Made by a program: the position numbers and the translations under genes. A stretch of 64,000 nucleotides of DNA, from NCBI GenBank assembly GCA_024875585.1, contig GCA_024875585.1_4107.1; one strand, given 5' to 3'. This document shows, one piece after another, positions 26,175-43,745 of this stretch. Position 1 is the first letter of the stretch; the number at the start of each line of letters is the position of its first letter. Under the pieces are notes generated by a model. The model was not told the origin of the DNA and ran no database searches. It worked only from the letters and a program-made list of their open reading frames with translations. Origin of the DNA: a phage.

Positions 26175-26261
26175 TACCCTAAACGCAAAAAAATTTAATT
26201 AATTTGCTTGCTATCCTGGGCCGTAATATGGTACTATTAGTTCAGTACTGAGAAAGTGCTT

Positions 26262-26290: not shown

Positions 26291-26294
26291 TTTT

Positions 26295-26391
26295 AAATTA
26301 TATGAATTTTGGGCGGATCTCGGCACCCTGTGGGTCAGTGCCTTGTGTCCGGCTTATGTAGTAATTATACGCTTTTTCAGTACTGAGTCAA
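26295..26391 (-). ncRNA. candidate small-RNA unit (own promoter + CCCAC-core transcript)
   Basis: minus reading TTGACT(26391-86)-16nt-TATAAT(26369-64), then tactacataagccggacacaaggcactgaCCCACAGGGTGCcgagatccgcccaaaattc; GGCAC/GUGCC can close an 11-nt loop. Confidence 0.35.
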
Positions 26392-28134: not shown

Positions 28135-28225
28135 TTGACTTAAAATGTCAGTACTGGCATAATGTATCTATTGAAACGAACAATTTGGCCCACGGGGTGC
28201 GGGAGTGTATCTATAGAAAAAGTAG
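28135..28225 (+). ncRNA. candidate small-RNA unit, rightward member of a convergent pair
   Basis: TTGACT(28135-40)-17nt-CATAAT(28158-63), then gtatctattgaaacgaacaatttggCCCACGGGGTGCGGGAGTGTATCtatag; no ORF. Confidence 0.35.
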
Positions 28226-28308
28226 TTTAGTACAGTTACAATTGTGCACCCGGTGGGTTAGCTGTTGTCATGGGATATATTATACCAGTACTGGATAGTG
28301 CTGTCAAT
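28226..28308 (-). ncRNA. candidate small-RNA unit, leftward member of a convergent pair
   Basis: minus reading TTGACA(28308-03)-18nt-TATAAT(28284-79), then atatcccatgacaacagctaaCCCACCGGGTGCacaattg. Confidence 0.35.
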
Positions 28309-30371: not shown

Positions 30372-30469
30372 GTACTGAATAATTTAATAGACGGATCTAT
30401 GCACCCGGTGGGTTAGTGACTGTTTCGTCTTTATGTAGTAATTATGCCAGTACTGGATGCACTTGTCAA
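30372..30469 (-). ncRNA. candidate small-RNA unit (own leftward promoter + CCCAC-core transcript)
   Basis: minus reading TTGACA(30469-64)-17nt-CATAAT(30446-41), then tactacataaagacgaaacagtcactaaCCCACCGGGTGCatagatccgtcta...; runs into the palindromic terminator at 30342. Confidence 0.35.
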
Positions 30470-34859: not shown

Positions 34860-34866
34860 AAAAAAG

Positions 34867-34898
34867 TGGTTGACTTCGGTCAGCCATTTTGCTATTAT
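34867..34898 (+). promoter_or_regulatory. bifunctional terminator hairpin / promoter
   Basis: tggttgac-ttcg-gtcagcca+tttt; TTGACT(34870-75)-17nt-TATTAT(34893-98). Confidence 0.6.
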
Positions 34899-34904
34899 AT
34901 ATTC

Positions 34905-34960
34905 ATTGAGAGATAGCTCACTAGCCCACAGGGTGCGGGAGTGTATCTATTATATAAGTA
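34905..34960 (+). ncRNA. candidate short transcript with CCCAC-N-GGGTGCGGGAGTGTATC core
   Basis: attcattgagagatagctcactagCCCACAGGGTGCGGGAGTGTATCtattatataag; core 34925-36; no ORF. Confidence 0.35.
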
Positions 34961-35002
34961 TTGAGTACTGAAAACTATTTTAAAAGTACATGTAGAAAGT
35001 AC

Positions 35003-35061
35003 TTGTAAACTATGTTTAAAGGCGTATAATGTTTTACATCGAGAGCGGGAAACGGTTTCCC
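35003..35061 (+). promoter_or_regulatory. early-type promoter + leader hairpin
   Basis: TTGTAA(35003-08)-16nt-TATAAT(35025-30); gggaaa-cgg-tttccc 35047-61. Confidence 0.6.
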
Positions 35062-35082
35062 CTAGTAATAAGGAATAAAATC

Positions 35083-35424
35083 ATGACTATTGCAATTGTA
35101 CAATCTAACTTTGAAAACGAAATCATCGCCCAAGCACTGCGTTTAAATGATGGTCGGGCCGAAATTAATTACGGTTTCAATTCAGGCGGTTGTGAAAAAT
35201 ATCAGTACTTTATAACTGCTGATGGCGGTGTCCTGGGTATTAATACAGTTATTGTAAACATTCAGAAAATTAATTTCAATGATCCAGACGATAGCCAGTT
35301 TTACATTGTAGGCGTAGACGTGAACTATGAGGATGACTCACTAACTGATGATTACACTGGCGAGAAGTTAGAAAGTGCATACGGTGAAGATGATTATCAG
35401 TCAGTACCGGAAGATTTTGAATAA
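35083..35424 (+). CDS. hypothetical acidic protein (113 aa)
   Basis: ATG 35083 after taagga. Confidence 0.8.
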   Translation: MTIAIVQSNFENEIIAQALRLNDGRAEINYGFNSGGCEKYQYFITADGGVLGINTVIVNIQKINFNDPDDSQFYIVGVDVNYEDDSLTDDYTGEKLESAYGEDDYQSVPEDFE

Positions 35425-35438
35425 TATTAAAAAATAGT

Positions 35439-35528
35439 TTGACAATAGATTATAGTACTGTATAATAGTTTACATCAAGGGCGACGGGAAGTTTTAAAAA
35501 CTTCCCTATAGGGAGAATAGTTCTCCCC
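35439..35528 (+). promoter_or_regulatory. sigma70-type promoter + tandem leader hairpins
   Basis: TTGACA(35439-44)-16nt-TATAAT(35461-66); hairpin A 35486-506, hairpin B gggagaa-tag-ttctcccc 35511-28. Confidence 0.65.
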
Positions 35529-35548
35529 ACTAACAGAGAGAAAACAAA

Positions 35549-35761
35549 ATGGCTAATATCTGCACTGTACTGAAAAATGCAAAACAAGTTTTATTTTCTG
35601 ATCACGATCATTTAAACAAGGATATTACTGGCGTTCGGAATATCAAAGATGTAAAACGTGTTATGGGTATCTATTGCAATATGAAACGTGTCGGCACGTT
35701 CGGTAATAAATTTCTATACCAGGCGGGGGATTACAATTTTACACTGACTATCATTAACTAA
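35549..35761 (+). CDS. hypothetical small protein (70 aa)
   Basis: SD agagag. Confidence 0.75.
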   Translation: MANICTVLKNAKQVLFSDHDHLNKDITGVRNIKDVKRVMGIYCNMKRVGTFGNKFLYQAGDYNFTLTIIN

Positions 35762-35840
35762 AAATATTATCACAGTACTATTGACATAGATTGATAGTAC
35801 TGGCATAATAGATTTTATTAAAACAACTGAGGAAATTAAA
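35762..35840 (+). repeat. promoter cassette, copy 3 of 4
   Basis: TTGACA 35781-86, CATAAT 35804-09; near-identical to 32806-32885. Confidence 0.7.
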
Positions 35841-36020
35841 ATGGCTATCATCGCAAAAACTGAAATCATCGGCCTGGATTCTATCATCATGACGTTTGAA
35901 GATCAAAAAGGTATGTATGTAGTTTCCTATGGTGATTATGTTCGGGAGTATGAAACGGTAGACGAAGCCTTTGAAAGTTACATTCGCCAGGTGAATAAAG
36001 CATACGACGATTACCGCTAA
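35841..36020 (+). CDS. hypothetical small protein (59 aa; below cutoff), paralog of 32886..33098
   Basis: MAIIAKTEIIGLDSII... Confidence 0.65.
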   Translation: MAIIAKTEIIGLDSIIMTFEDQKGMYVVSYGDYVREYETVDEAFESYIRQVNKAYDDYR

Positions 36021-36030
36021 AATATATTAC

Positions 36031-36075
36031 CAGTACTATCAAAGCTATTGACAACGTTTGATAGTACTGTATAAT
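36031..36075 (+). promoter_or_regulatory. promoter enclosed by 13-bp inverted repeat
   Basis: CAGTACTATCAAA(36031-43)...TTTGATAGTACTG(36057-69); TTGACA 36048-53, TATAAT 36070-75. Confidence 0.6.
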
Positions 36076-36121
36076 AAGTTTTATCAACTGTAGTTAACTT
36101 AACAAAAGAGAGAGAAACAAA

Positions 36122-36265
36122 ATGATCGCACTGGATTCATTCATCGATGCAGTTCTGGCAAAAACTGGCGAGGATCTGACCGCAGAACAATACGCAATGA
36201 TCGAGCAATGCCAGCAAGACGGTAAATCGGTGAAAGATACTGTTAAGATTATCCGCAAGATGTAA
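36122..36265 (+). CDS. hypothetical small protein (47 aa; below cutoff)
   Basis: SD agagagag; MIALDSFIDAVLAKTGEDL... Confidence 0.55.
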   Translation: MIALDSFIDAVLAKTGEDLTAEQYAMIEQCQQDGKSVKDTVKIIRKM

Positions 36266-36272
36266 GATTATA

Positions 36273-36300
36273 AGCCCATTAGTTAACGCTGGTGGGCTTT
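36273..36300 (+). terminator. terminator-like hairpin
   Basis: agcccat-tagttaacgctg-gtgggct + tt. Confidence 0.5.
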
Positions 36301-36371
36301 AATCATTTACCCTATACAATGCCAGTACTAAACCGTTTATCTCGTTAGAATGCATTACAGGACGTTTGACA

Positions 36372-36569
36372 ATGATTAGCATGAAATCAGTACAAAAACA
36401 AATAGAAACATTATCAAAAATTAAACGTAAACAGTACTCATTAGAATATAATATCAATGGTAACTATCATCTAATGAAAGAGAATAATTTTATCGTCATT
36501 GATGAATCATTGCAAATTATTAGTATAGTACTGAAAGCATTAATTAATGATAGAAAAAGGTTAAAATAA
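36372..36569 (+). CDS. hypothetical small protein (about 65 aa)
   Basis: first ATG of the ORF (track start 36366 is TTG); weak SD. Confidence 0.5.
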   Translation: MISMKSVQKQIETLSKIKRKQYSLEYNINGNYHLMKENNFIVIDESLQIISIVLKALINDRKRLK

Positions 36570-36826
36570 TGGCAGTAGGATTCGCGAAAGATGGAGCCGA
36601 GCAAGATGAGATTAACGCAGTTATTCAAGCCGCCGTTAACCACGCTAGAAAGCAAATTAACGCACAAATAGAATCACTGATACATTGCCTCGACTGCGGC
36701 GATAAAATCCCTGAGAATCGCCGACAGGCTGTTAAGGGATGTAAGTACTGCATAACCTGCCAGGAAGATCATGATAGTACTTTTAAAAGAGATCCGCGTA
36801 ATTGTTGGCATAGATCTATGAGATAA
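36569..36826 (+). CDS. TraR/DksA-family C4 zinc-finger protein
   Basis: CLDCGDKIPENRRQAVKGCKYCITCQ matches C-x2-C-G-x2-IP-x2-RR...C-x2-C. Confidence 0.75.
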   Translation: MAVGFAKDGAEQDEINAVIQAAVNHARKQINAQIESLIHCLDCGDKIPENRRQAVKGCKYCITCQEDHDSTFKRDPRNCWHRSMR

Positions 36827-36833
36827 AAAGTAA

Positions 36834-36861
36834 TTGACAGTACTGAAAGATAGTGTATAAT
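36834..36861 (+). promoter_or_regulatory. sigma70-type promoter
   Basis: TTGACA(36834-39)-16nt-TATAAT(36856-61). Confidence 0.6.
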
Positions 36862-36890
36862 GTTTTATATCTTAACTGAGGATAGAAATC

Positions 36891-37247
36891 ATGGGAATAC
36901 AACATATCACGCGGACCACTGACAATGGCGAGATCACTGGTTATCAAGTACAGGGCAAAGTAGCACAATTGCAGTACTGGTTTGTTAAACGTGGAATCAT
37001 TGCACCGGATCTTGATTATGACCGTGTAGCGTTTATTGATTCTCTTTATGTTGATCCTGATAGTCGGGGCAATGGTGAAGGTAACGAATTAATGAATGCC
37101 TTTATTGATGCTGCCGATGATTCAGATTGTATCATTTTAGAATGCGATACGGGAGAAGATAACGCCTTCAATCTTAAAGAATGGTACGAAGGTTTCGGAT
37201 TCGAAGTACTGATCGATAGTGAATATCCTATCATGATTTTATCATAG
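36891..37247 (+). CDS. GNAT-family N-acetyltransferase
   Basis: LYVDPDSRGNGEGNELMNAF (R-G-x-G-x-G motif A) and WYEGFGFE. Confidence 0.6.
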   Translation: MGIQHITRTTDNGEITGYQVQGKVAQLQYWFVKRGIIAPDLDYDRVAFIDSLYVDPDSRGNGEGNELMNAFIDAADDSDCIILECDTGEDNAFNLKEWYEGFGFEVLIDSEYPIMILS

Positions 37248-37261
37248 TACTAAAAAAGTAA

Positions 37262-37318
37262 TTGACAGTACTATCAGATAGTGTATAATGTTTTACATAG
37301 AGGGGAAACATCTTCCCC
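37262..37318 (+). promoter_or_regulatory. sigma70-type promoter + leader hairpin
   Basis: TTGACA(37262-67)-16nt-TATAAT(37284-89); ggggaa-acatc-ttcccc 37302-18. Confidence 0.65.
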
Positions 37319-37336
37319 TACTAAGAGGAAATGAAA

Positions 37337-37525
37337 ATGGAAAAATTATCAAGTATTTTAGTACAAGATGATTTTGGTAATCCTGGAAGTGCTATCATTG
37401 TTCGGGGTAATAAAGCAACGTTTGTTATTGCTGGTGGACCTGTACAGCGTAGCATTAAAAACAATGCTGTTACTATTAATAATGTACGCTATCGCTTAGA
37501 TAAAGAATTGATTCATAAACTTTAA
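37337..37525 (+). CDS. hypothetical small protein (62 aa)
   Basis: ATG 37337 has better SD spacing (aagagga) than 37331. Confidence 0.7.
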   Translation: MEKLSSILVQDDFGNPGSAIIVRGNKATFVIAGGPVQRSIKNNAVTINNVRYRLDKELIHKL

Positions 37526-37532
37526 AAAGTAC

Positions 37533-37622
37533 TTGCAATTAGTTTTTAGTACTGTATAATAGTTTACATGAAAGGCAACGGGAAGTTTAAAAACTTCCCT
37601 AAAGGGGGAAATGATTCTCCCC
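37533..37622 (+). promoter_or_regulatory. early-type promoter + tandem leader hairpins
   Basis: TTGCAA(37533-38)-16nt-TATAAT(37555-60); hairpin A 37580-99; hairpin B 37604-22. Confidence 0.65.
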
Positions 37623-37640
37623 ACTAAGAGGAAAGAAAAA

Positions 37641-37853
37641 ATGCAAGGTCAACTAATCGTTCGTAAATGGTCTGATACTAATGAAAAACCGTGGGATGTA
37701 CAATACATCGGACCGGATGGGGTATCACGTTATCAGCCAGGCGTAACGCATAGTACTGAGCAATATGCCGCCGCTCATCGTGAACGCCTGTTAGAATCTA
37801 TGCAACAGGGTTTAGGTGAAAAATTCATTCAAGATCATTGGCTGAAAGATTAA
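37641..37853 (+). CDS. hypothetical small protein (70 aa)
   Basis: ATG 37641 after aagagga. Confidence 0.75.
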   Translation: MQGQLIVRKWSDTNEKPWDVQYIGPDGVSRYQPGVTHSTEQYAAAHRERLLESMQQGLGEKFIQDHWLKD

Positions 37854-37860
37854 AAAGTAC

Positions 37861-37920
37861 TTGTGTAGTATAGAAAATAAAGTATAATGTTTAATACAGG
37901 AAGGGGAATAGTTCCCCTCC
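37861..37920 (+). promoter_or_regulatory. early-type promoter + leader hairpin
   Basis: TTGTGT(37861-66)-16nt-TATAAT(37883-88); ggaaggggaa-tag-ttcccctcc 37899-920. Confidence 0.6.
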
Positions 37921-37939
37921 TAACAAAAAGGAAAGTAAC

Positions 37940-38113
37940 ATGATTCATGTAGAATTGTCAGTACTGAGAGATTTGTTTTATCGGATGGGTACTACTGGCG
38001 AATATCCGAAGGGTGATACTGCAAAACTTTTTGTATCTCTCGACTTATGGCAACGCGAACAATTAGTAATGTCGTGGCGTAAAGGTAAAGCAGATCGCGA
38101 GGTGAAAGCATGA
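37940..38113 (+). CDS. hypothetical small protein (57 aa; below cutoff)
   Basis: ATG 37940 after aaagga; MIHVELSVLRDLFYRMG... Confidence 0.55.
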   Translation: MIHVELSVLRDLFYRMGTTGEYPKGDTAKLFVSLDLWQREQLVMSWRKGKADREVKA

Positions 38114-38259
38114 AAGAATTTTTATTCGAAGTAGTTTTTATTGGTGTAAGTAGTCACCAATTGATTCGCTCAAGTGGTTATAATGTTTGCCAGGCATGGA
38201 ATAACATTAAACAAATGTACCCGAACGCTATCACATATCGCAACCCAAAACAAGTTTAA
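38110..38259 (+). CDS. hypothetical small protein (49 aa; below cutoff)
   Basis: ATGA overlap with 37940..38113; MKEFLFEVVFIGVSSHQ... Confidence 0.5.
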   Translation: MKEFLFEVVFIGVSSHQLIRSSGYNVCQAWNNIKQMYPNAITYRNPKQV

Positions 38260-38270
38260 AAATAATTAAA

Positions 38271-38307
38271 AAAAGGATTGACTTCGGTCAGTCCTTTTTG
38301 CTATTAT
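38271..38307 (+). promoter_or_regulatory. bifunctional terminator hairpin / promoter
   Basis: aaaaggattgac-ttcg-gtcagtcctttt; TTGACT(38278-83)-18nt-TATTAT(38302-07). Confidence 0.6.
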
Positions 38308-38313
38308 ATATTC

Positions 38314-38370
38314 ATTGAGAGATAGCTCACTGACCCATAGGGTGCGGAAGTGTATCTATTATATGCTGGT
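38314..38370 (+). ncRNA. candidate short transcript with CCCAC-type core
   Basis: attcattgagagatagctcactgaCCCATAGGGTGCGGAAGTGTATCtattatatgc; core 38334-45. Confidence 0.35.
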
Positions 38371-38412
38371 GGGTGTATTATCTAGTACTGAAAACTATTT
38401 GATAAAAAGTAC

Positions 38413-38440
38413 TTGCATTGTACTTAGAATCAAGTATAAT
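38413..38440 (+). promoter_or_regulatory. early-type promoter driving structured leader
   Basis: TTGCAT(38413-18)-16nt-TATAAT(38435-40). Confidence 0.6.
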
Positions 38441-38446
38441 GTTTTA

Positions 38447-38526
38447 CATCAGGACGGGGAACGAAATAAGTAAATCCCTGTTAAGTAGCCCAGGAGTAAG
38501 GCATACGAAAAACTCCCCTGATAAAA
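38447..38526 (+). ncRNA. structured leader / candidate RNA motif (three-way junction), copy 2
   Basis: same P1/P3 as copy 1; P2 acgggga/tccctgt re-pairs with a shifted G-U. Confidence 0.45.
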
Positions 38527-38530
38527 TAGT

Positions 38531-38559
38531 TTGACAATAATTTTAAGTACTGATAAAAT
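38531..38559 (+). promoter_or_regulatory. second promoter after structured leader
   Basis: TTGACA(38531-36)-17nt-TAAAAT(38554-59). Confidence 0.45.
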
Positions 38560-38591
38560 AATCACATCAACTACTGATAAGGAAACATAAA

Positions 38592-38867
38592 ATGCGGGTT
38601 CTTCTGACAGCTAACGAAATCGAGCAAGTACTTACTACTAACCTGGAACAATGGAAACGTGAAGCAGATATCCAGGCGGTTCAATTGTTAAATGAGAAGT
38701 TAACGCCGGATGATTTAAGTAAGATTGTAGATCCTCAATTCTACGAAGATATTCACGACACCGCGTTAAGCGTCGAGGATGTACTAGATAAGCACTACAT
38801 TGATACTAATTTACAGGGTTACGGTCGTAAAAATTTTATTACTATTCACGACATTTACAATAATTAA
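38592..38867 (+). CDS. hypothetical protein (91 aa)
   Basis: SD taagga. Confidence 0.8.
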   Translation: MRVLLTANEIEQVLTTNLEQWKREADIQAVQLLNEKLTPDDLSKIVDPQFYEDIHDTALSVEDVLDKHYIDTNLQGYGRKNFITIHDIYNN

Positions 38868-38870
38868 GTA

Positions 38871-38931
38871 TTGACAAAGTATCTTAGTACTGTATAATAG
38901 TTTACATCAAGTGAGGGGAATGGTTCCCCTC
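38871..38931 (+). promoter_or_regulatory. sigma70-type promoter + leader hairpin (cassette copy 1 of 3)
   Basis: TTGACA(38871-76)-16nt-TATAAT(38893-98); gaggggaa-tgg-ttcccctc 38913-31. Confidence 0.65.
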
Positions 38932-38952
38932 CTAACAAAGAGAGAAATAAAA

Positions 38953-39135
38953 ATGGCTAAGTGCACTATCTGTAAGAAAGAAATCGTATTAGTTCCAAGT
39001 GCCCGTGAGCGTGCCGCTCGGTTCGGTGGCAAAGCGTCAGACTATACAAAAATGTTTACTACTCATGCAAATTGCCAGGTAGCAAAACGTTCACAAGAAA
39101 GCGTAGAATTAATGCGTAAACTTTCCAAAAAATAA
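38953..39135 (+). CDS. hypothetical basic Cys-containing small protein (60 aa)
   Basis: ATG 38953 after agagag; MAKCTICKKEIVL...HANCQVAKR. Confidence 0.7.
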   Translation: MAKCTICKKEIVLVPSARERAARFGGKASDYTKMFTTHANCQVAKRSQESVELMRKLSKK

Positions 39136-39138
39136 GTA

Positions 39139-39200
39139 TTGACAAAGTATCTTAGTACTGTATAATAGTTTACATCAAGTGAGGGGAAACGGTTCCCCTC
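39139..39200 (+). promoter_or_regulatory. sigma70-type promoter + leader hairpin (cassette copy 2 of 3)
   Basis: TTGACA(39139-44)-16nt-TATAAT(39161-66); gaggggaa-acgg-ttcccctc 39181-200. Confidence 0.65.
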
Positions 39201-39221
39201 CTAACAAAGAGAGAAATAAAA

Positions 39222-39545
39222 ATGACTATGATCCTTGCCCAGAAAGTAGAACTGAAAATTGTAACTTCCTTTGACATTAAAGTTAATCGCTGGACTGATC
39301 GGAACGGTAATACTTACCACTCTTGCTACGTGTCTGCATTGATTGGTGATCGTTGGGAAGACTTGGGACACGAAACCTTTACATACGGTTATGGTACGCA
39401 AGGCGAATACACTGGTTTGGAGATCATTAAAGAAACCGTTATAGGTTTCAACCCGAAAGAAAAAGTTATTCACCGCATCGAAAAAGAGATTAACAAAGAA
39501 ATAACAGTTCGCTACTACGATGTAAAACGTAAGAAAGACATGTAA
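39222..39545 (+). CDS. hypothetical protein (107 aa), paralog of 33181..33525
   Basis: see 33181; shared tail DVKRKKD(L/M). Confidence 0.85.
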   Translation: MTMILAQKVELKIVTSFDIKVNRWTDRNGNTYHSCYVSALIGDRWEDLGHETFTYGYGTQGEYTGLEIIKETVIGFNPKEKVIHRIEKEINKEITVRYYDVKRKKDM

Positions 39546-39557
39546 TAGAATCCATTT

Positions 39558-39596
39558 AAAGTACTATTTGACATTACACAGATAGTACTTTATAAT
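39558..39596 (+). promoter_or_regulatory. promoter embedded in 10-bp inverted repeat
   Basis: AAAGTACTAT(39558-67)...ATAGTACTTT(39582-91); TTGACA 39568-73 -17nt- TATAAT 39591-96. Confidence 0.6.
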
Positions 39597-39640
39597 AGAC
39601 TCTAACTTGTAGTACTAACTTAACTAATAGGATGTATACC

Positions 39641-40036
39641 ATGATTACTAAATTCTACGCTACCCGTGAAGCTGCCCGTATTGTTGCACGCGAGGAAGGA
39701 GCGGCATTTAAAGACATGGGCAAAGATGCACCGAAAGGCCAACGCTGGAGCGTACAGTTCAAAGAAATCTCTGATATTGTGAATTCACCTGAACCAGTAC
39801 TGACAGCAGCAGAACAGAAGAAAGCTGATGAACTGGCGGCAATTCTTAACGCTCAAGATGAATTCGTCGAGGGTGCTGATATCCAGGTTGTAGTAAATTC
39901 GAATGCATGGACTCACGCGGATCATCTGGCTAACCTGAAGCGTCCAAGCGTACTGATTCGCAACCAGAAAGAGATCCGTCATGACCGTAAGGGTAATCGT
40001 GTAACAGTATACAGTAAACGCCGCCAGGTTATCTAA
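39641..40036 (+). CDS. hypothetical protein (131 aa), paralog of 27521..27787
   Basis: MITKFYATREAARIVAREEGAAFKDMG...HDRKGNRVTVYSKRR. Confidence 0.8.
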   Translation: MITKFYATREAARIVAREEGAAFKDMGKDAPKGQRWSVQFKEISDIVNSPEPVLTAAEQKKADELAAILNAQDEFVEGADIQVVVNSNAWTHADHLANLKRPSVLIRNQKEIRHDRKGNRVTVYSKRRQVI

Positions 40037-40058
40037 TAACTTGCAGTTCTAACAACAC

Positions 40059-40083
40059 GGCGGGATCTGTTCCCGCCTTTTTT
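40059..40083 (+). terminator. intrinsic terminator
   Basis: ggcggga-tctgt-tcccgcc + tttttt. Confidence 0.7.
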
Positions 40084-40098
40084 ACAGGATAAACTAAA

Positions 40099-40353
40099 AT
40101 GATTAAGGTAAAACTATCTAAAGATAATATCTTGCGGGTACACTATAAAGCCCCTCAGAGAATCATCACAAAGGCCGTACAGCTTGCGAATGAGTTTATT
40201 AATGGTAATCTATTACCTAGGAAGTTAAGCAACGGAAAACTGCGTGTAATCGATGTAGACACTAACAACAGAATAGTAATAGAGAATACCGGAAAGATAA
40301 ACCTATATGAACACCAACAATATAATAAGAAAATAAAACTAATTAGTCGTTGA
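40099..40353 (+). CDS. hypothetical protein (84 aa)
   Basis: SD cagga. Confidence 0.7.
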   Translation: MIKVKLSKDNILRVHYKAPQRIITKAVQLANEFINGNLLPRKLSNGKLRVIDVDTNNRIVIENTGKINLYEHQQYNKKIKLISR

Positions 40354-40378
40354 CAGTACTCAAATGTTTTAGTACTAT
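40350..40378 (+). promoter_or_regulatory. sigma70-type promoter
   Basis: TTGACAGTACTcaaatgttttAGTACTAT; -10 TACTAT 40373-78; duplicated at 40627. Confidence 0.5.
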
Positions 40379-40407
40379 ATATCTATACCAACACGGAGAG
40401 AAACAAA

Positions 40408-40626
40408 ATGAAATTATCTAAAATCGAAAAGAAAACTATTGACGTAGCTATCCAACATGGTTACACATTTCGTAATGATTTACATTTTACCAATTTTCAA
40501 CAAGGGTATCGTACTATTAAAAAACTAATTGACAAAGGTTTATTAGTTAAAGTAGACAACGGCAACGGCGTTGAATATCAACCAACACAGGACGCATTTA
40601 ATTTTAAGAAATATAATATTATCTAA
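40408..40626 (+). CDS. possible winged-helix DNA-binding protein (72 aa)
   Basis: ...YRTIKKLIDKGLLVKVDNGNG... resembles a wHTH recognition helix plus wing; weak. Confidence 0.7.
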   Translation: MKLSKIEKKTIDVAIQHGYTFRNDLHFTNFQQGYRTIKKLIDKGLLVKVDNGNGVEYQPTQDAFNFKKYNII

Positions 40627-40655
40627 TTGACAGTACTCAAATATTTTAGTACTAT
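40627..40655 (+). promoter_or_regulatory. sigma70-type promoter (duplicate of 40350)
   Basis: TTGACA(40627-32)-17nt-TACTAT(40650-55). Confidence 0.5.
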
Positions 40656-40682
40656 ATCTATACCAACACAGGAAAAAACAAA

Positions 40683-41267
40683 ATGCGTAATTATACTAAA
40701 TTCATCCGTACACTGTCAGAAATGGAAACCAACAAAGAGATCTTGACAGCTTGTCGGTTAGCTGGTCTGGAGATCATCGGTGCGGGGTCTTCCCGTATTG
40801 TATTCGCTTTAAATGATCGGTTAGTGATTAAGGTCGCGAATTGTGATGCAGGTGTAGAACAAAATGAAACAGAATGTAAAGTATGGAATTTTTTAGATTA
40901 TGACCGCCCTCAGTTGAAACAGTTCTTTGCTAAAGTACATATGCATTTAAGCGATCCTGATAATATGTTTATTGTTATGGATCGGTTGAGTACTGCAAGT
41001 AAAGGCAGTGTAAAGCACGTTAATGCGTGCAACGAATTAAAGTACAATATTAAACGTAATGCCATTGAACGCCAACACCGCTTTGCTGATGCACTACAAC
41101 ACGTAGATGATACATTATCAACACTAACGATTAGAGATATCAGAAAACAGAATATCGGCCAGGATCGAAATGGACTGATTAAAGTACTTGATTATGGTTT
41201 AACCCGCAATATCTGGAATCAGTACTATAAAAAGCGTGATGTAGCAGCAAGTAAGGTAACACGATAA
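40683..41267 (+). CDS. atypical minimal protein-kinase-fold protein
   Basis: GAGSSRIVFALNDRLVIKVAN (G-loop + VIK Lys), IRDIRKQNIG (D-x-x-x-x-N), KVLDYGL (DFG-like). Confidence 0.65.
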   Translation: MRNYTKFIRTLSEMETNKEILTACRLAGLEIIGAGSSRIVFALNDRLVIKVANCDAGVEQNETECKVWNFLDYDRPQLKQFFAKVHMHLSDPDNMFIVMDRLSTASKGSVKHVNACNELKYNIKRNAIERQHRFADALQHVDDTLSTLTIRDIRKQNIGQDRNGLIKVLDYGLTRNIWNQYYKKRDVAASKVTR

Positions 41268-41280
41268 AAAAGATTAAAAA

Positions 41281-41314
41281 AGGGATTGACTCCGGTCAGT
41301 CCCTTTGCTATTAT
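41281..41314 (+). promoter_or_regulatory. bifunctional terminator hairpin / promoter
   Basis: agggattgac-tccg-gtcagtccct; TTGACT(41286-91)-17nt-TATTAT(41309-14). Confidence 0.6.
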
Positions 41315-41320
41315 ATATTC

Positions 41321-41375
41321 ATTGAGAGATAACTCACTGACCCATAGGGTGCGGGAGTGTATCTATTATATAAGT
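41321..41375 (+). ncRNA. candidate short transcript with CCCAC-type core
   Basis: attcattgagagataactcactgaCCCATAGGGTGCGGGAGTGTATCtattatataag; core 41341-52. Confidence 0.35.
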
Positions 41376-41407
41376 ATTGAGTACTGAAAACTATTTTTAA
41401 AAAGTAC

Positions 41408-41468
41408 TTGCAATGTACTTAGAATCAAGTATAATGTTTTATATCGAGAGGGGGAAATGGTTCTCCCC
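41408..41468 (+). promoter_or_regulatory. early-type promoter + leader hairpin
   Basis: TTGCAA(41408-13)-16nt-TATAAT(41430-35); gggggaaa-tgg-ttctcccc 41450-68. Confidence 0.6.
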
Positions 41469-41489
41469 AATACAATAAGGAATAAAATC

Positions 41490-41711
41490 ATGACTACAAT
41501 GACTTGCATTTACGCTTCCAATCTTCTGAATGATGCGGCCTTTAATGTTGATTCAGAATATCAATGTTATCGGGATGAAAATAAAAAAGTTTTTGTAGTT
41601 GATAATAATGGTTTCCATATTGAATTGCAATCCGGCTTCACTGGCGTTGATGGTAAATCAGTATGGGGCGTACAGGATGATAAAGGTACATATCATTTTA
41701 AACGTAATTAA
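41490..41711 (+). CDS. hypothetical small protein (73 aa)
   Basis: ATG 41490 after taagga. Confidence 0.75.
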   Translation: MTTMTCIYASNLLNDAAFNVDSEYQCYRDENKKVFVVDNNGFHIELQSGFTGVDGKSVWGVQDDKGTYHFKRN

Positions 41712-41714
41712 GTA

Positions 41715-41804
41715 TTGACAAAGTATCTTAGTACTGTATAATAGTTTACATCAAGGGCAACGGGAAGTTTTTAAAACTTCCCTATAGGGAGAATAGATCT
41801 CCCC
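41715..41804 (+). promoter_or_regulatory. sigma70-type promoter + tandem leader hairpins (cassette copy 3 of 3)
   Basis: TTGACA(41715-20)-16nt-TATAAT(41737-42); hairpin A 41762-82; hairpin B 41787-804. Confidence 0.65.
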
Positions 41805-41826
41805 GATACTAAAAGGAAACAAAAAT

Positions 41827-42099
41827 ATGTCTAGCTACTCCGCTACTATGATCATTAAAGATATGAACGGTAATCCTACTGCTGCTGGTGGATCATTTGG
41901 AAACATTAACTTAGATGGTCGGTTAACCATGCAATCAGCCATCAATGCAGCGAAAGAAGTTTTTAAGAATGAATGCACTGTAAGTAAGCTGGATTATATG
42001 GGATTCGCTATCGAGAAAACTAATCGTTTTGTGAACTACAAAAATCCACTGATGATTGATACCAACCTGAAAGCTAACGAAGTGGAATACTTATTATGA
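41827..42099 (+). CDS. hypothetical protein (90 aa)
   Basis: SD aaagga. Confidence 0.8.
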   Translation: MSSYSATMIIKDMNGNPTAAGGSFGNINLDGRLTMQSAINAAKEVFKNECTVSKLDYMGFAIEKTNRFVNYKNPLMIDTNLKANEVEYLL

Positions 42100-42287
42100 C
42101 AGTTGAAGAAGTTAAAAAAGTACTGGCAGTTCTACGCTATCATAATCATTGCAAGGTGAAGAATGATCCTGATTATCTTGATTCATCCCTTGAGGAAGAC
42201 ACATTAAACGCAATAAGCTATATGCAAACATTATTAAAACGTATGACCGAAAAGAATAGACCGGACTATATCGGAAATAAAATTTAA
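42096..42287 (+). CDS. hypothetical small protein (63 aa)
   Basis: ATGA overlap with upstream gene. Confidence 0.7.
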   Translation: MTVEEVKKVLAVLRYHNHCKVKNDPDYLDSSLEEDTLNAISYMQTLLKRMTEKNRPDYIGNKI

Positions 42288-42294
42288 AAAGTAC

Positions 42295-42355
42295 TTGCAT
42301 TGTAGTTAGATTAACGTATAATGTTTTATATCGAGAGGGGAAATGGTTTCCCCTC
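42295..42355 (+). promoter_or_regulatory. early-type promoter + leader hairpin
   Basis: TTGCAT(42295-300)-16nt-TATAAT(42317-22); gaggggaaa-tgg-tttcccctc 42335-55. Confidence 0.65.
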
Positions 42356-42373
42356 AAGTCCAGGAGATACACA

Positions 42374-42637
42374 ATGAACACTATCGAAATCACTATCAAT
42401 GCTCACGTATACGACAACGTAGTACTGCAAACTACTATGACCGCTAATGATACCAGAACTTTGCGGAATACTGTTATAAGTGCCGTATGTGCTGCAATTG
42501 GTGATGTATCCCTGGAAAATGCAGAACATATCAACAACGGTTTCACTATGTGCAAACGTGATAACGCAAAACATATCATCGTAGAAGGTTACGGCGGTGT
42601 AGAATATAATCTTTATATGAAAAAAGTACTTGCATAG
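42374..42637 (+). CDS. hypothetical protein (87 aa)
   Basis: SD caggag; 3' end overlaps next promoter. Confidence 0.8.
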   Translation: MNTIEITINAHVYDNVVLQTTMTANDTRTLRNTVISAVCAAIGDVSLENAEHINNGFTMCKRDNAKHIIVEGYGGVEYNLYMKKVLA

Positions 42638-42686
42638 TAACTAAAACAAAGTATAATGTTTTGCATAGGGGGAGATATCCTCCCCC
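42629..42686 (+). promoter_or_regulatory. early-type promoter + leader hairpin
   Basis: TTGCAT(42629-34)-17nt-TATAAT(42652-57); gggggag-atatc-ctccccc 42668-86. Confidence 0.6.
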
Positions 42687-42704
42687 ACTAAAAGGAGTAC
42701 TAAA

Positions 42705-42929
42705 ATGGCTAACTTTGATGAACTGATGCGGGAAGTAGCTACCCTGGCAGAAGAGAAGAAATCATTTGATTCTATCTATAACACCTCTTACCGTGATTCA
42801 GTACTGGCATGTAACCAGGATCAAAAAGATGAACTAATCGCCACCTATCATGAAGCGTGGAAGTATTACCGCCAATGGGAGAAAGAAGAAAGTGAGTCTA
42901 CCATTGACGGCCTCAATAATCTAATCTAA
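42705..42929 (+). CDS. hypothetical acidic small protein (74 aa)
   Basis: SD aaaggag. Confidence 0.8.
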   Translation: MANFDELMREVATLAEEKKSFDSIYNTSYRDSVLACNQDQKDELIATYHEAWKYYRQWEKEESESTIDGLNNLI

Positions 42930-42934
42930 AGTTT

Positions 42935-42976
42935 TATTTCAGTACTATTGACATAGATTGATAGTACTGATATGAT
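42935..42976 (+). repeat. promoter cassette, partial copy 4 of 4
   Basis: tttCAGTACTATTGACAtagattgATAGTACTGatatgat; TTGACA 42948-53 -17nt- TATGAT 42971-76. Confidence 0.55.
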
Positions 42977-43004
42977 AACTTTACTAACTACAAGGGGAAA
43001 CATC

Positions 43005-43262
43005 ATGGAACAATTCACACAATATCGGGTAAATCCTCAAGCTATGGCATACGTAGAAGACCATAAAACGTTACCAGTACAAACACCAATTAAAGGCCAT
43101 ATCTATCGTGCAATGTCATGGAATCCGGCCCAGGATGGCTATAAAACCGTAGCCGTGGGTATGTACTGCGGTAATGGTGAATGGTTTGATCCTAACAATC
43201 CGATTGCACTTGATAGTACTGAAAAAATGAAATGGGCCGACTACATCGAAGATATTTCATAA
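43005..43262 (+). CDS. hypothetical protein (85 aa)
   Basis: ATG 43005 after aagggga. Confidence 0.75.
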   Translation: MEQFTQYRVNPQAMAYVEDHKTLPVQTPIKGHIYRAMSWNPAQDGYKTVAVGMYCGNGEWFDPNNPIALDSTEKMKWADYIEDIS

Positions 43263-43269
43263 AAATTAT

Positions 43270-43330
43270 TTGACAGTACTAACCAGTAATGTATAATGTT
43301 TTACATAGAGCGGGGGAATAGTTCTCCCGC
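43270..43330 (+). promoter_or_regulatory. sigma70-type promoter + leader hairpin
   Basis: TTGACA(43270-75)-16nt-TATAAT(43292-97); gcgggggaa-tag-ttctcccgc 43310-30. Confidence 0.65.
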
Positions 43331-43352
43331 CAATAGTTTGGAGTAAAACATT

Positions 43353-43553
43353 ATGTCTATCGCTATCGCCCTGGTCGAAGTACTGAAAGAAGCTAAAGCC
43401 AACCTTATCGATGTACAGATTAAGGAATTGCAAAATGGCTTAATCGGCTGTACTTGTACCGCTGGTGGCCCGTCAGACTATCGGGAATTCGAATCACTTG
43501 AATCGATGGTCCGTTATCTTACAATCATCGTAGAAGATTGGAGAATCATCTAA
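43353..43553 (+). CDS. hypothetical small protein (66 aa)
   Basis: SD tggag. Confidence 0.75.
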   Translation: MSIAIALVEVLKEAKANLIDVQIKELQNGLIGCTCTAGGPSDYREFESLESMVRYLTIIVEDWRII

Positions 43554-43571
43554 CAAAAAAAAAGAATAAAA

Positions 43572-43605
43572 AGGGATTGACTCCGGTCAGTCCCTTTGCT
43601 ATTAT
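43572..43605 (+). promoter_or_regulatory. bifunctional terminator hairpin / promoter
   Basis: agggattgac-tccg-gtcagtccct; TTGACT(43577-82)-17nt-TATTAT(43600-05). Confidence 0.6.
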
Positions 43606-43611
43606 ATACGC

Positions 43612-43670
43612 ATAGACAAAAACTAGCCCACAGGGTGCATAGGTGTATCTAAAATATATAGTTAATAACG
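43612..43670 (+). ncRNA. candidate short transcript with CCCAC-type core (diverged 3' half)
   Basis: cgcatagacaaaaactagCCCACAGGGTGCATAGGTGTATCtaaaatat; core 43627-38. Confidence 0.3.
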
Positions 43671-43716: not shown

Positions 43717-43745
43717 TTGACAAAGTATATCAGTACTGCAATAAT
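43717..43745 (+). promoter_or_regulatory. sigma70-type promoter
   Basis: TTGACA(43717-22)-17nt-AATAAT(43740-45), cagtactg in spacer. Confidence 0.5.

What the first reader, a model, noticed from the sequence alone, without database searches (positions are those of the whole stretch)
34866..43670. The same core is the first transcribed element after four terminator/promoter hairpins
At 34867, 38271, 41281 and 43572 a terminator hairpin contains TTGACT across its loop, followed 17-18 nt later by TATTAT.

Each is followed by a nearly identical ORF-less leader: attcattgagagata(g/a)ctcact(a/g)(g/a)CCCA(C/T)AGGGTGCGG(G/A)AGTGTATCtattatat. The 43.6 kb copy has a diverged 5' and 3' half.

The next protein gene has its own separate promoter 60-100 nt further on. 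The hairpin-embedded promoter therefore appears dedicated to this short RNA.

By eye the RNA can fold as:
- an outer stem GAUA/UAUC
- then GCUC/GAGU, after a one-nt bulge
- an apical CCC-A(C/U)A-GGG hairpin. The C/U difference falls in the loop and the stem is kept.

The four sites are spaced 2.3 to 3.4 kb apart, which punctuates the early-gene block into modules.
Basis: partly seen in the sequence, partly recalled or inferred. Interest (0 to 1): 0.7.

Follow-up and report, generated by a model that had tools for sequence, protein, structure and literature searches.

The report
Repeated structured leader RNA, jumbo phage
The repeated "core" is real: it is one copy-family of a previously undescribed ~50-base structured RNA that is made at the very start of about ten early transcripts in the terminal repeat of giant (Rak2-like) enterobacterial phages, but it is not tied to the hairpin promoters and what it does is still inferred, not shown.

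Summary
Four terminator-like hairpins carrying a TTGACT -35 box, 17-18 nt, then TATTAT, are each followed by a near-identical ORF-less leader and then a second promoter plus gene.

The window is an Asteriusvirus-like jumbo coliphage, and the region is its ~20 kb direct terminal repeat (early genes).

The core occurs 10 times in the window, on both strands. Every copy lies 21-29 nt downstream of a sigma70-type -10 box; six of these promoters are ordinary ones. Hairpin promoters also occur without the core.

A covariance model finds 158 copies in ~15 Rak2-like phage genomes from at least six host genera, about 10 per terminal repeat. There are none in Rfam and none above chance in 596 Gb of bacterial genomes.

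The conserved anatomy is:
- the transcription start;
- a small 5' hairpin with strong covariation;
- a YUAR linker;
- a near-invariant CCCAYNGGGUGC;
- two mutually exclusive helices that share GGGU: CCC/GGG, and GGGUGCR/UGYRYCY with a GARN loop.

The hairpin promoters are PeSL-like cassettes, a known kind. The RNA motif appears new.

My favoured mechanism is a nascent-RNA element that acts on a conserved host component, most likely the elongating RNA polymerase (put-like). This is inference, at roughly 30% confidence.

The parts
34863..34890 (+). Terminator-like hairpin 1, with the -35 TTGACT (34870-34875) in its 5' arm and loop. The -10 TATTAT is at 34893-34898, preceded by TG.
34903..34952 (+). 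Leader RNA element, copy 1. 5' hairpin UGAG/CUCA; 12-mer CCCACAGGGTGC at 34925-34936; 3' hairpin GGGUGCG-GGAG-UGUAUCU.
   Evidence: (29.9 bits, E 3.6e-6)
35003..35030 (+). Second promoter (TTGTAA-16-TATAAT) of the cassette. It is followed by a 5'UTR GC hairpin, an SD sequence and gene 35083-35424.
38270..38299 (+). Terminator-like hairpin 2. -35 at 38278-38283; -10 TATTAT at 38302-38307.
38312..38361 (+). Leader RNA element, copy 2. 12-mer CCCATAGGGTGC at 38334-38345.
   Evidence: (36.2 bits)
38413..38440 (+). Second promoter (TTGCAT-16-TATAAT). Here it drives a further ORF-less ~86-nt RNA candidate (38441-38526), ahead of a third promoter (38531-38559) and gene 38592-38867.
41279..41306 (+). 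Terminator-like hairpin 3. -35 at 41286-41291; -10 TATTAT at 41309-41314.
41319..41368 (+). Leader RNA element, copy 3. 12-mer at 41341-41352.
   Evidence: (31.6 bits)
41408..41435 (+). Second promoter (TTGCAA-16-TATAAT), ahead of gene 41490-41711.
43570..43597 (+). Terminator-like hairpin 4. -35 at 43577-43582; -10 TATTAT at 43600-43605.
43616..43654 (+). Leader RNA element, copy 4. It lacks the 5' hairpin. 12-mer at 43627-43638; 3' hairpin GGGUGCA-UAGG-UGUAUCU.
   Evidence: (38.5 bits)
43717..43745 (+). Second promoter (TTGACA-17-AATAAT), ahead of gene 43800-44132.
30385..30434 (-). Best-scoring window copy, on the minus strand. Its promoter is TTGACA-17-CATAAT (30469-30441). It is followed by AGUACUG and the bidirectional terminator 30361-30342, which gives a stand-alone ~100-nt RNA unit.
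   Evidence: 58.2 bits; z -3.08
28180..28268 (.). Convergent pair of elements: 28180-28216 (+, promoter 28135-28163) and 28230-28268 (-, promoter 28307-28279).
26091..26357 (.). Three copies near the left end of the terminal repeat. 26091-26140 (-) and 26307-26357 (-) are CM matches. A degenerate (+) copy has its 12-mer at 26266. Its 3' hairpin (26271-26290) is followed by a U-tract and is terminator-like.

Best explanation
**What it is (shown)**
- The four sites are paralogous copies of a ~150-220 bp regulatory cassette. In order, each cassette carries:
  - a PeSL-like stem-loop that is both an upstream terminator and the carrier of a sigma70 -35 box;
  - an extended -10 box;
  - a ~50-nt structured, non-coding leader;
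  - a second promoter with its own 5'UTR hairpin and ribosome-binding site.
- The leader belongs to a multi-copy RNA motif family. The family is confined to the ~20 kb direct terminal repeat (the early-gene block) of Rak2-like jumbo phages, at about 10 copies per repeat.
- The element always starts at the transcription start of a host-type promoter. Its layout is:
  - +1 A;
  - a 4-bp hairpin with an A/G-rich hexaloop, where the stem sequence is free but pairing is kept;
  - a YUAR linker;
  - a near-invariant R-CCC-AYN-GGGUGC;
  - a tail UGYRYCY, then AU.
- GGGU can pair either with the upstream RCCC (helix H2) or with the downstream tail (helix H3: 7 bp with a GARN loop). The two helices are mutually exclusive and close in energy.

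**How it most likely works (inferred)**
- The element acts as RNA while, or just after, it is made. It works by binding a conserved host component rather than a fast-evolving phage protein.
- The most likely target is the transcribing E. coli-type RNA polymerase itself, in the manner of HK022 put RNA.
- Polymerases that start at element-bearing promoters would then elongate differently (anti-pausing or anti-termination) through the terminator-studded early block.
- The H2/H3 exchange would be the folding step that sets the active conformation.

**Confidence split**
- A real, selected, promoter-proximal structured RNA family: about 0.85.
- The specific put-like mechanism: about 0.3.
For: **Phage identity and location**
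- The window is ~90% identical to Asteriusvirus genomes.
- Window 24988 to ~45050 aligns to positions 1-21455 of OQ718158, whose terminal repeat is annotated as 1-21525.
- A ~21 kb repeat was confirmed by restriction digests for fEgEco12 (PMC13070987).

**Promoter linkage**
- All 10 window copies lie 21-29 nt downstream of a -10 box, on the same strand as it.
- Family-wide the figure is 127 of 129 distinct copies, against 9.7% of random positions in the same loci.

**Family size and range**
- The covariance model finds 9 window copies at E < 1e-3, all between 26.0 and 43.7 kb.
- It finds 158 copies in 31 loci from ~15 genomes infecting Escherichia, Klebsiella, Cronobacter, Salmonella, Serratia/Erwinia and Yersinia.
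- There are 10 copies in each of two repeats whose ends have been mapped.
- Whole-contig pattern hits fall in one 15-25 kb block per ~350 kb genome, or in both terminal copies.

**Structure**
- 5' hairpin: all four pairs show changes on both sides. One pair reads CG 44, GC 42, AU 7, GU 1, with none unpaired.
- There are 166 double-change cells against 66.8 +/- 5.7 in shuffles, with 0 of 500 shuffles reaching that number. Slid controls pair at 33-62% against 88.5% observed.
- H3: the five inner pairs are 94-100% paired.
- The five tail columns show 128 transitions and 15 transversions. Other variable columns show 486 and 457.
- The third base of the H3 loop is a purine in 127 of 127 copies.
- H3 becomes unfavourable when the tail letters are shuffled: +3.3 against -3.95 kcal/mol.
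- H2: 97% paired, and it is the RNAalifold consensus.
- The H2 loop is 3 or 4 nt with CCC and GGG kept. One copy reads CCU-UAUA-AGG, a change on both sides.

**Why a conserved host partner is likely**
- The 12-mer is near-invariant, while the flanks of the same copies are only 73-79% identical between genera.

**Put-like context**
- putL is a two-stem RNA that begins at +3 of the PL transcript and acts alone on RNA polymerase (PMC9378689).
- Intrinsic terminators punctuate this early block.
- The block also encodes a DksA/TraR-type zinc-finger protein (PF01258), a family whose named members bind RNA polymerase.
Against: **No direct evidence**
- There are no experimental or transcript data for any of these phages.

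**Differences from put**
- The element is ~50 nt rather than ~70 nt. I could not compare sequences, because I had neither a put sequence nor a put model.

**Context that fits an anti-terminator poorly**
- 15 of 132 copies are followed within 18-51 nt by an intrinsic terminator, and 45 of 132 sit in tight convergent pairs. An anti-terminator gains nothing obvious in either setting.
- If element-modified polymerases ignored terminators, a terminator placed directly upstream of each of the four promoters would insulate little.
- Only about 10 of ~60 promoters in the repeat carry the element.

**Weak points in the structure evidence**
- GGGUGC is invariant. H2 and H3 are therefore supported only by one-sided changes and a few single events, not by true covariation.
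- Alignment A3 was fitted to the model, which inflates pair counts for the 5' hairpin.
Confidence: 0.4

Rival explanations
1. The element is an abundant trans-acting small RNA or decoy. About 10-20 strong immediate-early promoters per genome flood the cell with an RNA that carries one invariant motif. That RNA titrates or redirects a conserved host RNA-binding factor or a defence protein. Where no terminator follows, the element simply rides on the mRNA 5' end or is cut off.
For: - The family is multi-copy with one invariant 12-mer, while the 5' hairpin sequence is free.
- Stand-alone units have their own terminator 18-51 nt downstream in 15 of 132 copies. One example is 30445->30340, with z -3.08.
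- Many copies have no gene downstream.
- In the related jumbo phage PA5oct, two ORF-less RNAs in the terminal repeat are highly expressed (PMC7318152).
- An AU-rich stretch after the tail would suit endonucleolytic release (inference).
Against: - In the four sites of the finding, and in about a third of all copies, no 3' end signal is present.
- No similarity to any Rfam family.
- The motif is not found in host genomes, so it mimics no host RNA or CRISPR repeat detectably.
- The strict position at +1 is expected for a small RNA. It is not needed for a decoy motif embedded in an mRNA.
Confidence: 0.25
2. The element is an RNA stability or processing module. It is a 5'-terminal structure that protects immediate-early transcripts, or marks them for timed cleavage by RNase E or by a phage nuclease. 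The H2/H3 exchange exposes or hides the AU-rich tail.
For: - The 5' hairpin starts 3-4 nt from the predicted 5' end.
- Every ordinary gene promoter in the block also carries a 5'UTR GC hairpin, so 5' structures are a general theme here.
- The tail and the conserved AU that follows are single-stranded only when H2 forms.
Against: - A stabiliser needs structure, not a 12-nt invariant sequence.
- Some copies lack the 5' hairpin entirely, for example 43616-43654.
- It does not explain gene-less copies or convergent pairs.
Confidence: 0.15
3. The element works at the DNA level. Either the 12-mer is an operator or roadblock site at +15 to +27 of early promoters, or it is a -30 activator box (like the T4 MotA box) for a second-phase promoter whose -10 lies 11 bp downstream.
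For: - RCCC-N3-GGGU is a DNA palindrome.
- The majority residues 11 bp downstream of the 12-mer spell TATAAT.
- The spacing resembles MotA-box promoters. This comparison is from my own knowledge and was not tested.
Against: - TAnnnT at the right spacing is present in only 30 of 71 copies.
- The half-site spacing varies between 3 and 4 nt within single genomes.
- All copies have one orientation relative to the upstream promoter.
- Three features are RNA-type constraints that a protein-DNA site does not predict: the transition-only tail, the purine-only loop position and the covarying 5' hairpin.
Confidence: 0.07
4. The element is a discrete 50-70 nt RNA made only from the hairpin-embedded promoters. 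It folds into one long hairpin with an outer GAUA/UAUC stem, then GCUC/GAGU, then an apical CCC/GGG.
For: - That fold is the minimum-energy structure of three copies: -14.1, -12.3 and -16.4 kcal/mol.
- The AGAUA loop and UAUCU tail are complementary in a subset of copies in several genera.
Against: - The z-scores are weak, and the fourth copy cannot form the fold.
- Across the family there is no excess long-range pairing.
- Most copies use other promoters.
- There is no terminator after the element at these four sites.
Confidence: 0.08
5. The element has no function of its own. The core is a passenger in a recombining, duplicating promoter cassette.
For: - Three of the four copies share 65-86% identity over 145 nt, which extends beyond the element (family D10).
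- PeSL cassettes are known to spread by recombination (PMC2839356).
Against: - The 12-mer is near-invariant across genera whose flanks have diverged.
- It is linked to many unrelated promoters and contexts.
- The variation is structured.
Confidence: 0.05

Closest known systems
PeSL (promoter-early stem-loop) cassettes of T4-type phages (Arbiol et al. 2010, PMC2839356)
   Same: - Both are composite intergenic cassettes in a block of small orphan early genes.
- Both combine a strong sigma70-like promoter with a stem-loop that can overlap the -35 box and act as terminator for upstream transcription.
- Both are repeated many times and similar over ~100 bp.
   Different: - PeSLs were defined in RB49/phi1, not in Rak2-like phages.
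- PeSLs run straight into a Shine-Dalgarno sequence and start codon. Here four cassettes insert a conserved structured leader and a second promoter.
- Recombination and mini-circle formation were not tested here.
HK022 put RNA (putL/putR; PMC9378689)
   Same: - Both are phage early-transcript elements made by the host sigma70 polymerase.
- putL likewise starts within a few nucleotides of the transcription start.
- Both have two stem-loops.
- Both would act on a host machine that is conserved among the hosts.
   Different: - put is ~70-74 nt with long, bulged stems and a triplex. This element is ~50 nt with 4-bp and 7-bp stems.
- put occurs twice per genome. This element occurs ~10 times, on both strands, often in convergent pairs or just before terminators.
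- No activity data exist for this element.
Lambda nut sites (boxA + boxB hairpin)
   Same: - Both are promoter-proximal RNA signals in early transcripts.
- Both have a short hairpin with a GNRA-like loop.
   Different: - No boxA-like sequence lies near any copy: 0 of 133.
- The conserved bases are in the stem's 5' arm and the preceding CCCAYN, not in the loop.
- No N-like protein was identified.
Antiterminator/terminator overlaps (RAT/BglG-type, ANTAR-type attenuators)
   Same: - Two mutually exclusive helices share one strand.
- The upstream, sequence-conserved small hairpin could be held in place by a factor.
   Different: - The downstream helix H3 is followed by a T-rich run in only 14 of 133 copies, so it is not a canonical terminator.
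- The loops do not match the ANTAR hexaloop rule. That rule is from my own knowledge.
ORF-less RNAs in the terminal repeat of jumbo phage PA5oct (PMC7318152)
   Same: - PA5oct is a related jumbo phage that relies on the host polymerase.
- Its long terminal repeat is full of early genes.
- That repeat holds highly expressed non-coding RNAs.
   Different: - The PA5oct RNAs are 236-451 nt and are reported to have no sequence similarity to anything outside its sister isolate.
- No motif or structure was described for them.
- Homology to this element was not tested.

Membership tests
PeSL cassette | Strong sigma70-like promoter in an intergenic space upstream of a small early or orphan gene | tested here: met
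   TTGACT, 17-18 nt, TG-n-TATTAT at all four sites. The downstream genes are small and have no Pfam hit.
PeSL cassette | Stable stem-loop overlapping or adjacent to the promoter boxes | tested here: met
   Stems of 12-13 pairs enclose the -35 box. The homologous hairpin is annotated as an ARNold terminator in phage G17 and as a stem_loop in GAP32.
PeSL cassette | Terminator activity, and recombination or mini-circle formation between cassettes | not testable with these tools
   This needs reporter assays and inverse PCR, as in PMC2839356.
HK022 put RNA | Lies in the early transcript just downstream of a sigma70 promoter | tested here: met
   127 of 129 copies begin at the predicted start of a sigma70-like promoter.
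HK022 put RNA | ~70-nt two-stem fold with sequence similarity to putL/putR | tested here: inconclusive
   A two-hairpin layout is present, but the element is ~50 nt. No Rfam family matched at E <= 5. I did not verify that Rfam holds a put model and had no put sequence to align.
HK022 put RNA | Factor-independent anti-termination or anti-pausing in cis | not testable with these tools
   This needs in vitro transcription assays.
Lambda-type nut site | boxA consensus (CGCUCUUA / UGCUCUUUAACAA) 5' of a boxB hairpin | tested here: not met
   No GCTCTT[TA]A within any element or the 60 nt after it: 0 of 133.
Intrinsic terminator / attenuator | GC-rich hairpin directly followed by a U-tract | tested here: not met
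   H3 is followed by at least 5 T in 8 nt in only 14 of 133 copies, and in none of the four sites. The exception in the window is 26271-26290.
Any Rfam 15 family, tRNA or tmRNA | Covariance-model or ARAGORN match | tested here: not met
   No match at gathering score in the whole window. None at E <= 5 on the copies. No tRNA or tmRNA.
CRISPR-repeat mimic (RNA anti-CRISPR) or copy of a host RNA | Near-identity to a repeat or RNA gene present in host genomes | tested here: not met
   The degenerate 25-nt pattern gave 27 single, scattered hits in 596 Gb of bacterial and archaeal genomes. None was in Enterobacterales and none was arrayed. My own estimate of the chance expectation is about 70.
MotA-box-type middle promoter | Conserved box at about -30, plus a TAnnnT -10 box 11-13 bp downstream | tested here: not met
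   TAnnnT is at the right spacing in 30 of 71 copies. RNA-type constraints are present instead.

The most novel reading that the evidence does not exclude
The element would be the first protein-independent, polymerase-directed (put-like) RNA outside lambdoid phages. Alternatively it would be a multi-copy RNA sponge for a conserved host factor. Either way it would be a bistable ~50-nt nascent RNA, encoded ~10-20 times in the terminal repeats of Rak2-like jumbo phages, that reprogrammes host transcription or RNA metabolism in the first minutes of infection.
Probability: 0.25. Interest if true: 0.85.

Novelty: new variant of a known kind. Interest (0 to 1): 0.62.

Why it matters
Rak2-like jumbo phages are being isolated for therapy, yet their early programme is essentially unannotated. 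Nearly every gene in the ~20 kb terminal repeat is labelled 'hypothetical'.

This element is conserved, structured and promoter-linked. It is near-invariant across at least six host genera and is present about ten times per repeat. That makes it one of the few concrete handles on how these phages use the host polymerase immediately after DNA entry.

If it modifies elongation or sequesters a host factor, it would extend RNA-only control of transcription beyond HK022. It would also provide a compact, portable regulatory part.

It also matters for annotation. Several records place tiny CDSs or only a 'terminator' feature over these sites.

Tried and rejected
- **Known RNA families.** Rfam at gathering score and at E <= 5, and ARAGORN, found nothing on the copies.
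- **Hidden small ORF.**
  - TTG and GUG frames through the core end at different places in different copies.
  - The tail varies at first and second codon positions.
  - There is no ribosome-binding site.
Rejected by the half-swap test and by z-scores.
- **MotA-like middle promoter or operator.** Rejected as the main reading.
- **nut-like boxA.** Absent.
- **Attenuator with H3 as terminator.** A U-tract follows H3 in only ~10% of copies.
- **Mimic of a host RNA or CRISPR repeat.**
  - A by-eye alignment to the type I-F repeat, recalled from memory, gave 17 of 28 matches in one copy.
  - It relies on non-conserved flanks.
  - The genome scan found no host counterpart.
- **5'/3' closing helix or pseudoknot.** I looked by eye for AUAG with CUAU, for the linker with the tail, and for CCC with the H3 loop. 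No consistent partner emerged.
- **Fur-box palindrome.** It is seen between convergent pairs in other genera but is not present in the window.
- **Literature.**
  - No paper in the library mentions the motif strings or describes promoters or RNAs of Asteriusvirus or RaK2.
  - The library lacks many subscription-journal papers, for example the GAP32 genome paper.
- **Downstream genes.** Pfam scans of the four genes directly downstream gave nothing that suggests a partner protein.

Full report
**1. Where we are**

- The window matches ~350-380 kb Escherichia jumbo phages of the genus Asteriusvirus (121Q, PBECO4, G17, vB_Ec-M-J, fEgEco12) at about 90% identity.
- Positions 1-21455 of vB_Ec-M-J align to window 24988-44983. 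That record annotates 1-21525 as its direct terminal repeat.
- A ~21 kb repeat was confirmed by restriction digests for fEgEco12 (PMC13070987).
- The finding (34.9-43.7 kb) therefore lies inside the terminal repeat.
- This repeat is a dense block of about 50 small plus-strand genes. Almost every gene has its own sigma70-type promoter, a 5'UTR GC hairpin and a Shine-Dalgarno sequence.

**2.

- Four stem-loops lie at 34863-34890, 38270-38299, 41279-41306 and 43570-43597.
  - Each carries TTGACT in its 5' arm and loop.
  - TATTAT follows 17-18 nt later, preceded by TG.
  - All four are flagged as terminator-like.
- Each is followed by the quoted leader. The 23-mer core gives 6 matches against 0 expected. 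The hairpin pattern gives 9 matches against 0.42 expected.
- A second promoter lies 45-68 nt after the core at every site.
- The fourth copy differs on both sides of the central 12-mer.

**3. The core is not tied to the hairpin promoters**

- The 12-mer CCCAYNGGGTGC occurs on the plus strand at 28189, 34925, 38334, 41341 and 43627, with a degenerate copy at 26266.
- It occurs four times on the minus strand, at 26107, 26323, 28246 and 30401.
- Read on its own strand, every copy lies 21-29 nt downstream of a sigma70-like -10 box. Six of these promoters are ordinary, not hairpin-embedded.
- Conversely, hairpin promoters at 1346, 5858, 9254 and 10538 run straight into a ribosome-binding site with no core.
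- The hairpin promoter and the core are therefore independent modules.
- The hairpin promoter fits the published description of PeSL cassettes in T4-type phages. These combine a strong sigma70 promoter with a stem-loop that may overlap the -35 box and that terminates upstream transcription (PMC2839356).
- Public records annotate the homologous hairpin only as a predicted terminator or stem-loop.

**4. The core belongs to a family conserved across genera**

- The 106-nt hairpin-plus-leader query finds relatives in phages of Klebsiella (K64-1, RaK2, Muenster, fENko-Kae01), Cronobacter (GAP32), Salmonella (7t3, PHA46), Serratia (BF), Erwinia and Yersinia, at 73-85% identity.
- I built a covariance model from 17 in-register copies.
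  - It finds 9 copies in the window, all between 26.0 and 43.7 kb.
  - It finds 158 copies in 31 loci from about 15 genomes.
  - It finds 10 copies in each of two terminal repeats with mapped ends.
- An exact degenerate pattern scanned over whole viral contigs hits almost only ~350-380 kb contigs, plus five shorter ones. In the large contigs the hits fall in one 15-25 kb block, or in both terminal copies.
- The same pattern gives only 27 scattered single hits in 596 Gb of bacterial and archaeal genomes. None is enterobacterial, and the number is below my estimate of chance.
- Rfam and ARAGORN find nothing.
- I found no description in the searchable literature.

**5. Promoter linkage across the family**

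- 127 of 129 distinct copies have TTGnnn, 16-18 nt, nAnnnT ending 20-29 nt upstream of the 12-mer on the same strand. Random positions in the same loci score 9.7%.
- Distances cluster at 26-28 nt for copies with the 5' hairpin, and at 21-22 nt for copies without it.
- The aligned column before the hairpin is A in 122 of 128 copies. The column before that is always a pyrimidine.
- This fits a transcription start at that A, about 7 nt after the -10 box. This start is an inference.

**6. Structure**

*(a) 5' hairpin*
- It has 4 bp and an A/G-rich hexaloop or heptaloop such as GAGAAA, GCGAAA, AGAACAA or AGAUAA.
- All four pairs show changes on both sides. One pair reads CG 44, GC 42, AU 7, GU 1, with no unpaired cell.
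- There are 166 double-change cells against 66.8 +/- 5.7 in shuffles (0 of 500). With slid partners, pairing is 33-62% against 88.5% observed.
- The alignment was fitted to the model, which helps these numbers. However, the different stems are obvious in the raw sequences.

*(b) H2: RCCC / GGGU with a 3- or 4-nt loop*
- It is paired in 97% of copies, but it is nearly invariant.
- It is the RNAalifold consensus.
- The loop length changes while CCC and GGG stay: AYN, UAUA, UCAA, AAUA, AUUA, UUUA.
- One copy reads CCU-UAUA-AGG, a change on both sides.

*(c) H3: GGGUGCR / UGYRYCY with a GARN loop*
- The five inner pairs are 94-100% paired.
- The five tail columns show 128 transitions and 15 transversions. 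Other variable columns show 486 and 457.
- The third loop base is a purine in 127 of 127 copies.
- The tail occurs in 22 sequence types among 71 copies.
- One copy reads GGAUGC. This breaks H2 but improves H3.

*H2 versus H3*
- The two helices share GGGU, so they cannot coexist.
- Their energies are close: means of -3.2 and -4.0 kcal/mol. H3 is the more stable in 52 of 71 copies.

- They are the minimum-energy fold of three copies only, with weak z-scores.
- Exchanging 5' and 3' halves between copies barely changes the long-range gain: -1.85 against -1.55 +/- 0.15 kcal/mol.
- They are copy-specific at best.

**7. Context of the copies**

| Context (of 132 distinct copies) | Copies |
|---|---|
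| Intrinsic terminator starting 18-51 nt downstream (stand-alone 75-110 nt units) | 15 |
| Convergent pair with a second copy within 140 nt | 45 |
| Another promoter-like site follows | 45 |
| None of these | 28 |

- An example of a stand-alone unit is window 30445->30340, with z -3.08.
- The convergent pairs recur in several genera. In the window they are 26266(+)/26323(-) and 28189(+)/28246(-).
- The four sites of the finding belong to the third class, apart from 43616, where my regular expression missed the AATAAT promoter.
- At those four sites there is no sequence signal for a discrete 3' end.
- AGTACT lies 20-29 nt after the 12-mer in 27 of 73 copies.

**8. Rivals weighed**

- *A DNA-level reading* (operator, or MotA-box-like promoter) is disfavoured for four reasons:
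  - the variable half-site spacing within genomes;
  - the single orientation relative to the promoter;
  - the poor -10 box (TAnnnT in 30 of 71 copies);
  - the RNA-type constraints.
- *A pure passenger in a recombining cassette* is disfavoured. The 12-mer is near-invariant while the flanks and promoters differ.
- *nut-like, attenuator and host-RNA-mimic readings* fail specific tests.

**9. Mechanism (inference)**

- Three points suggest the RNA is read by something that is itself conserved among these hosts:
  - the 12-mer is near-invariant across phages of several enterobacterial genera;
  - the element sits strictly at the 5' end of host-polymerase transcripts;
  - the block is studded with terminators and also encodes a DksA/TraR-type zinc-finger protein.
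putL is a two-stem RNA that starts at +3 of the PL transcript and acts alone on the polymerase (PMC9378689).
- The main difficulties are:
  - copies that sit just before terminators or in convergent pairs;
  - the smaller size of the element;
  - the absence of any functional data.
- A trans-acting sponge RNA and a stability or processing module remain live alternatives.
- I put about 0.85 on 'a real, selected, structured, promoter-proximal RNA family'. I put about 0.3 on the put-like mechanism.

**10. Verdict**

- The hairpin promoters are a known kind (PeSL-like).
- The leader is a new RNA motif family of unknown function. It merits transcript mapping and in vitro transcription tests.

Noticed in passing
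window 24988 to ~45050: This stretch corresponds to the whole ~21 kb direct terminal repeat of related phages. Position 1 of OQ718158 maps to window 24988. The window therefore spans the junction between the right end of the unique region and the repeat.
   Followed up: partly
window 25595-43692 (11 sites, e.g. 25595-, 25607+, 38365+, 43685+): The E. coli Chi sequence GCTGGTGG occurs 11 times, against 0.49 expected. Ten of the sites lie inside the terminal-repeat part, and eight of the eleven are on the plus strand. Two sit just after leader copies. This may protect the linear DNA ends from RecBCD.
   Followed up: no
whole window, densest at 25-46 kb: AGTACT occurs 225 times, 119 of them in the repeat. 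The palindrome CAGTACTG occurs 46 times against 0.75 expected. It sits in promoter spacers just 5' of the -10 box, and 20-29 nt after the 12-mer in 27 of 73 element copies. It is a candidate operator for an unknown regulator.
   Followed up: partly
window 28381-28466 and 38441-38526: This is a second ORF-less RNA candidate driven by its own promoter. The two copies are 88% identical, and each lies between two promoters. The predicted fold is multi-stem, at -18.7 and -20.1 kcal/mol, with z -1.3 and -2.3. The same ~90 nt is found at 88-92% identity in unrelated ~145 kb coliphages (A73, EmilieFrey, A5-4).
   Followed up: partly
window 25420-26100: An ORF-poor stretch near the repeat's left end carries iteron-like short repeats: GGCTAAACGG, TAGATGGCT, GTCTGGAAGT and ATTTTGGGCG. 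The last of these is the reverse complement of the tail of minus-strand element copies. The stretch is flanked by convergent promoters. It could be an origin, a packaging region or an end-processing region.
   Followed up: no
window 25375-44182 (23 copies): A standard gene-promoter cassette is repeated before most small genes. It reads AAAAGTACTTGCAA, 16 nt, TATAAT, GTTTTACATCGAGAG, then a GC hairpin (e.g. GGGGAAATGGTTCTCCCC) and an SD sequence.
   Followed up: no
L008 ~11350-11375, L010 ~500-530, L011 ~810-840 and ~7085-7110, L012 ~190-215: In K64-1, RaK2, 7t3 and Erwinia phage 47, a Fur-box-like palindrome (AATGAGAATGATAATCATTCTCATT) lies between convergent element pairs. No such site is present in the window.
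   Followed up: partly
window 36569-36826 and 36891-37247: The early block encodes a DksA/TraR-type C4 zinc-finger protein (PF01258, E 1e-11) and a GNAT acetyltransferase. ORF 40683-41267 has a weak protein-kinase match below the Pfam cut-off.
   Followed up: no
window 14940-21167 (minus strand) and 46-50 kb: Just outside the repeat lie five paralogous genes of ~370-450 aa on the minus strand, with conserved starts. A separate repeated gene family lies at 46-50 kb (families D8, D13 and D19).
   Followed up: no
L008 20030-20092 (K64-1 gp448) and 121Q gene 287: Some public records place very short 'hypothetical protein' CDSs directly over the hairpin promoter and leader element. These are probably over-calls.
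   Followed up: no
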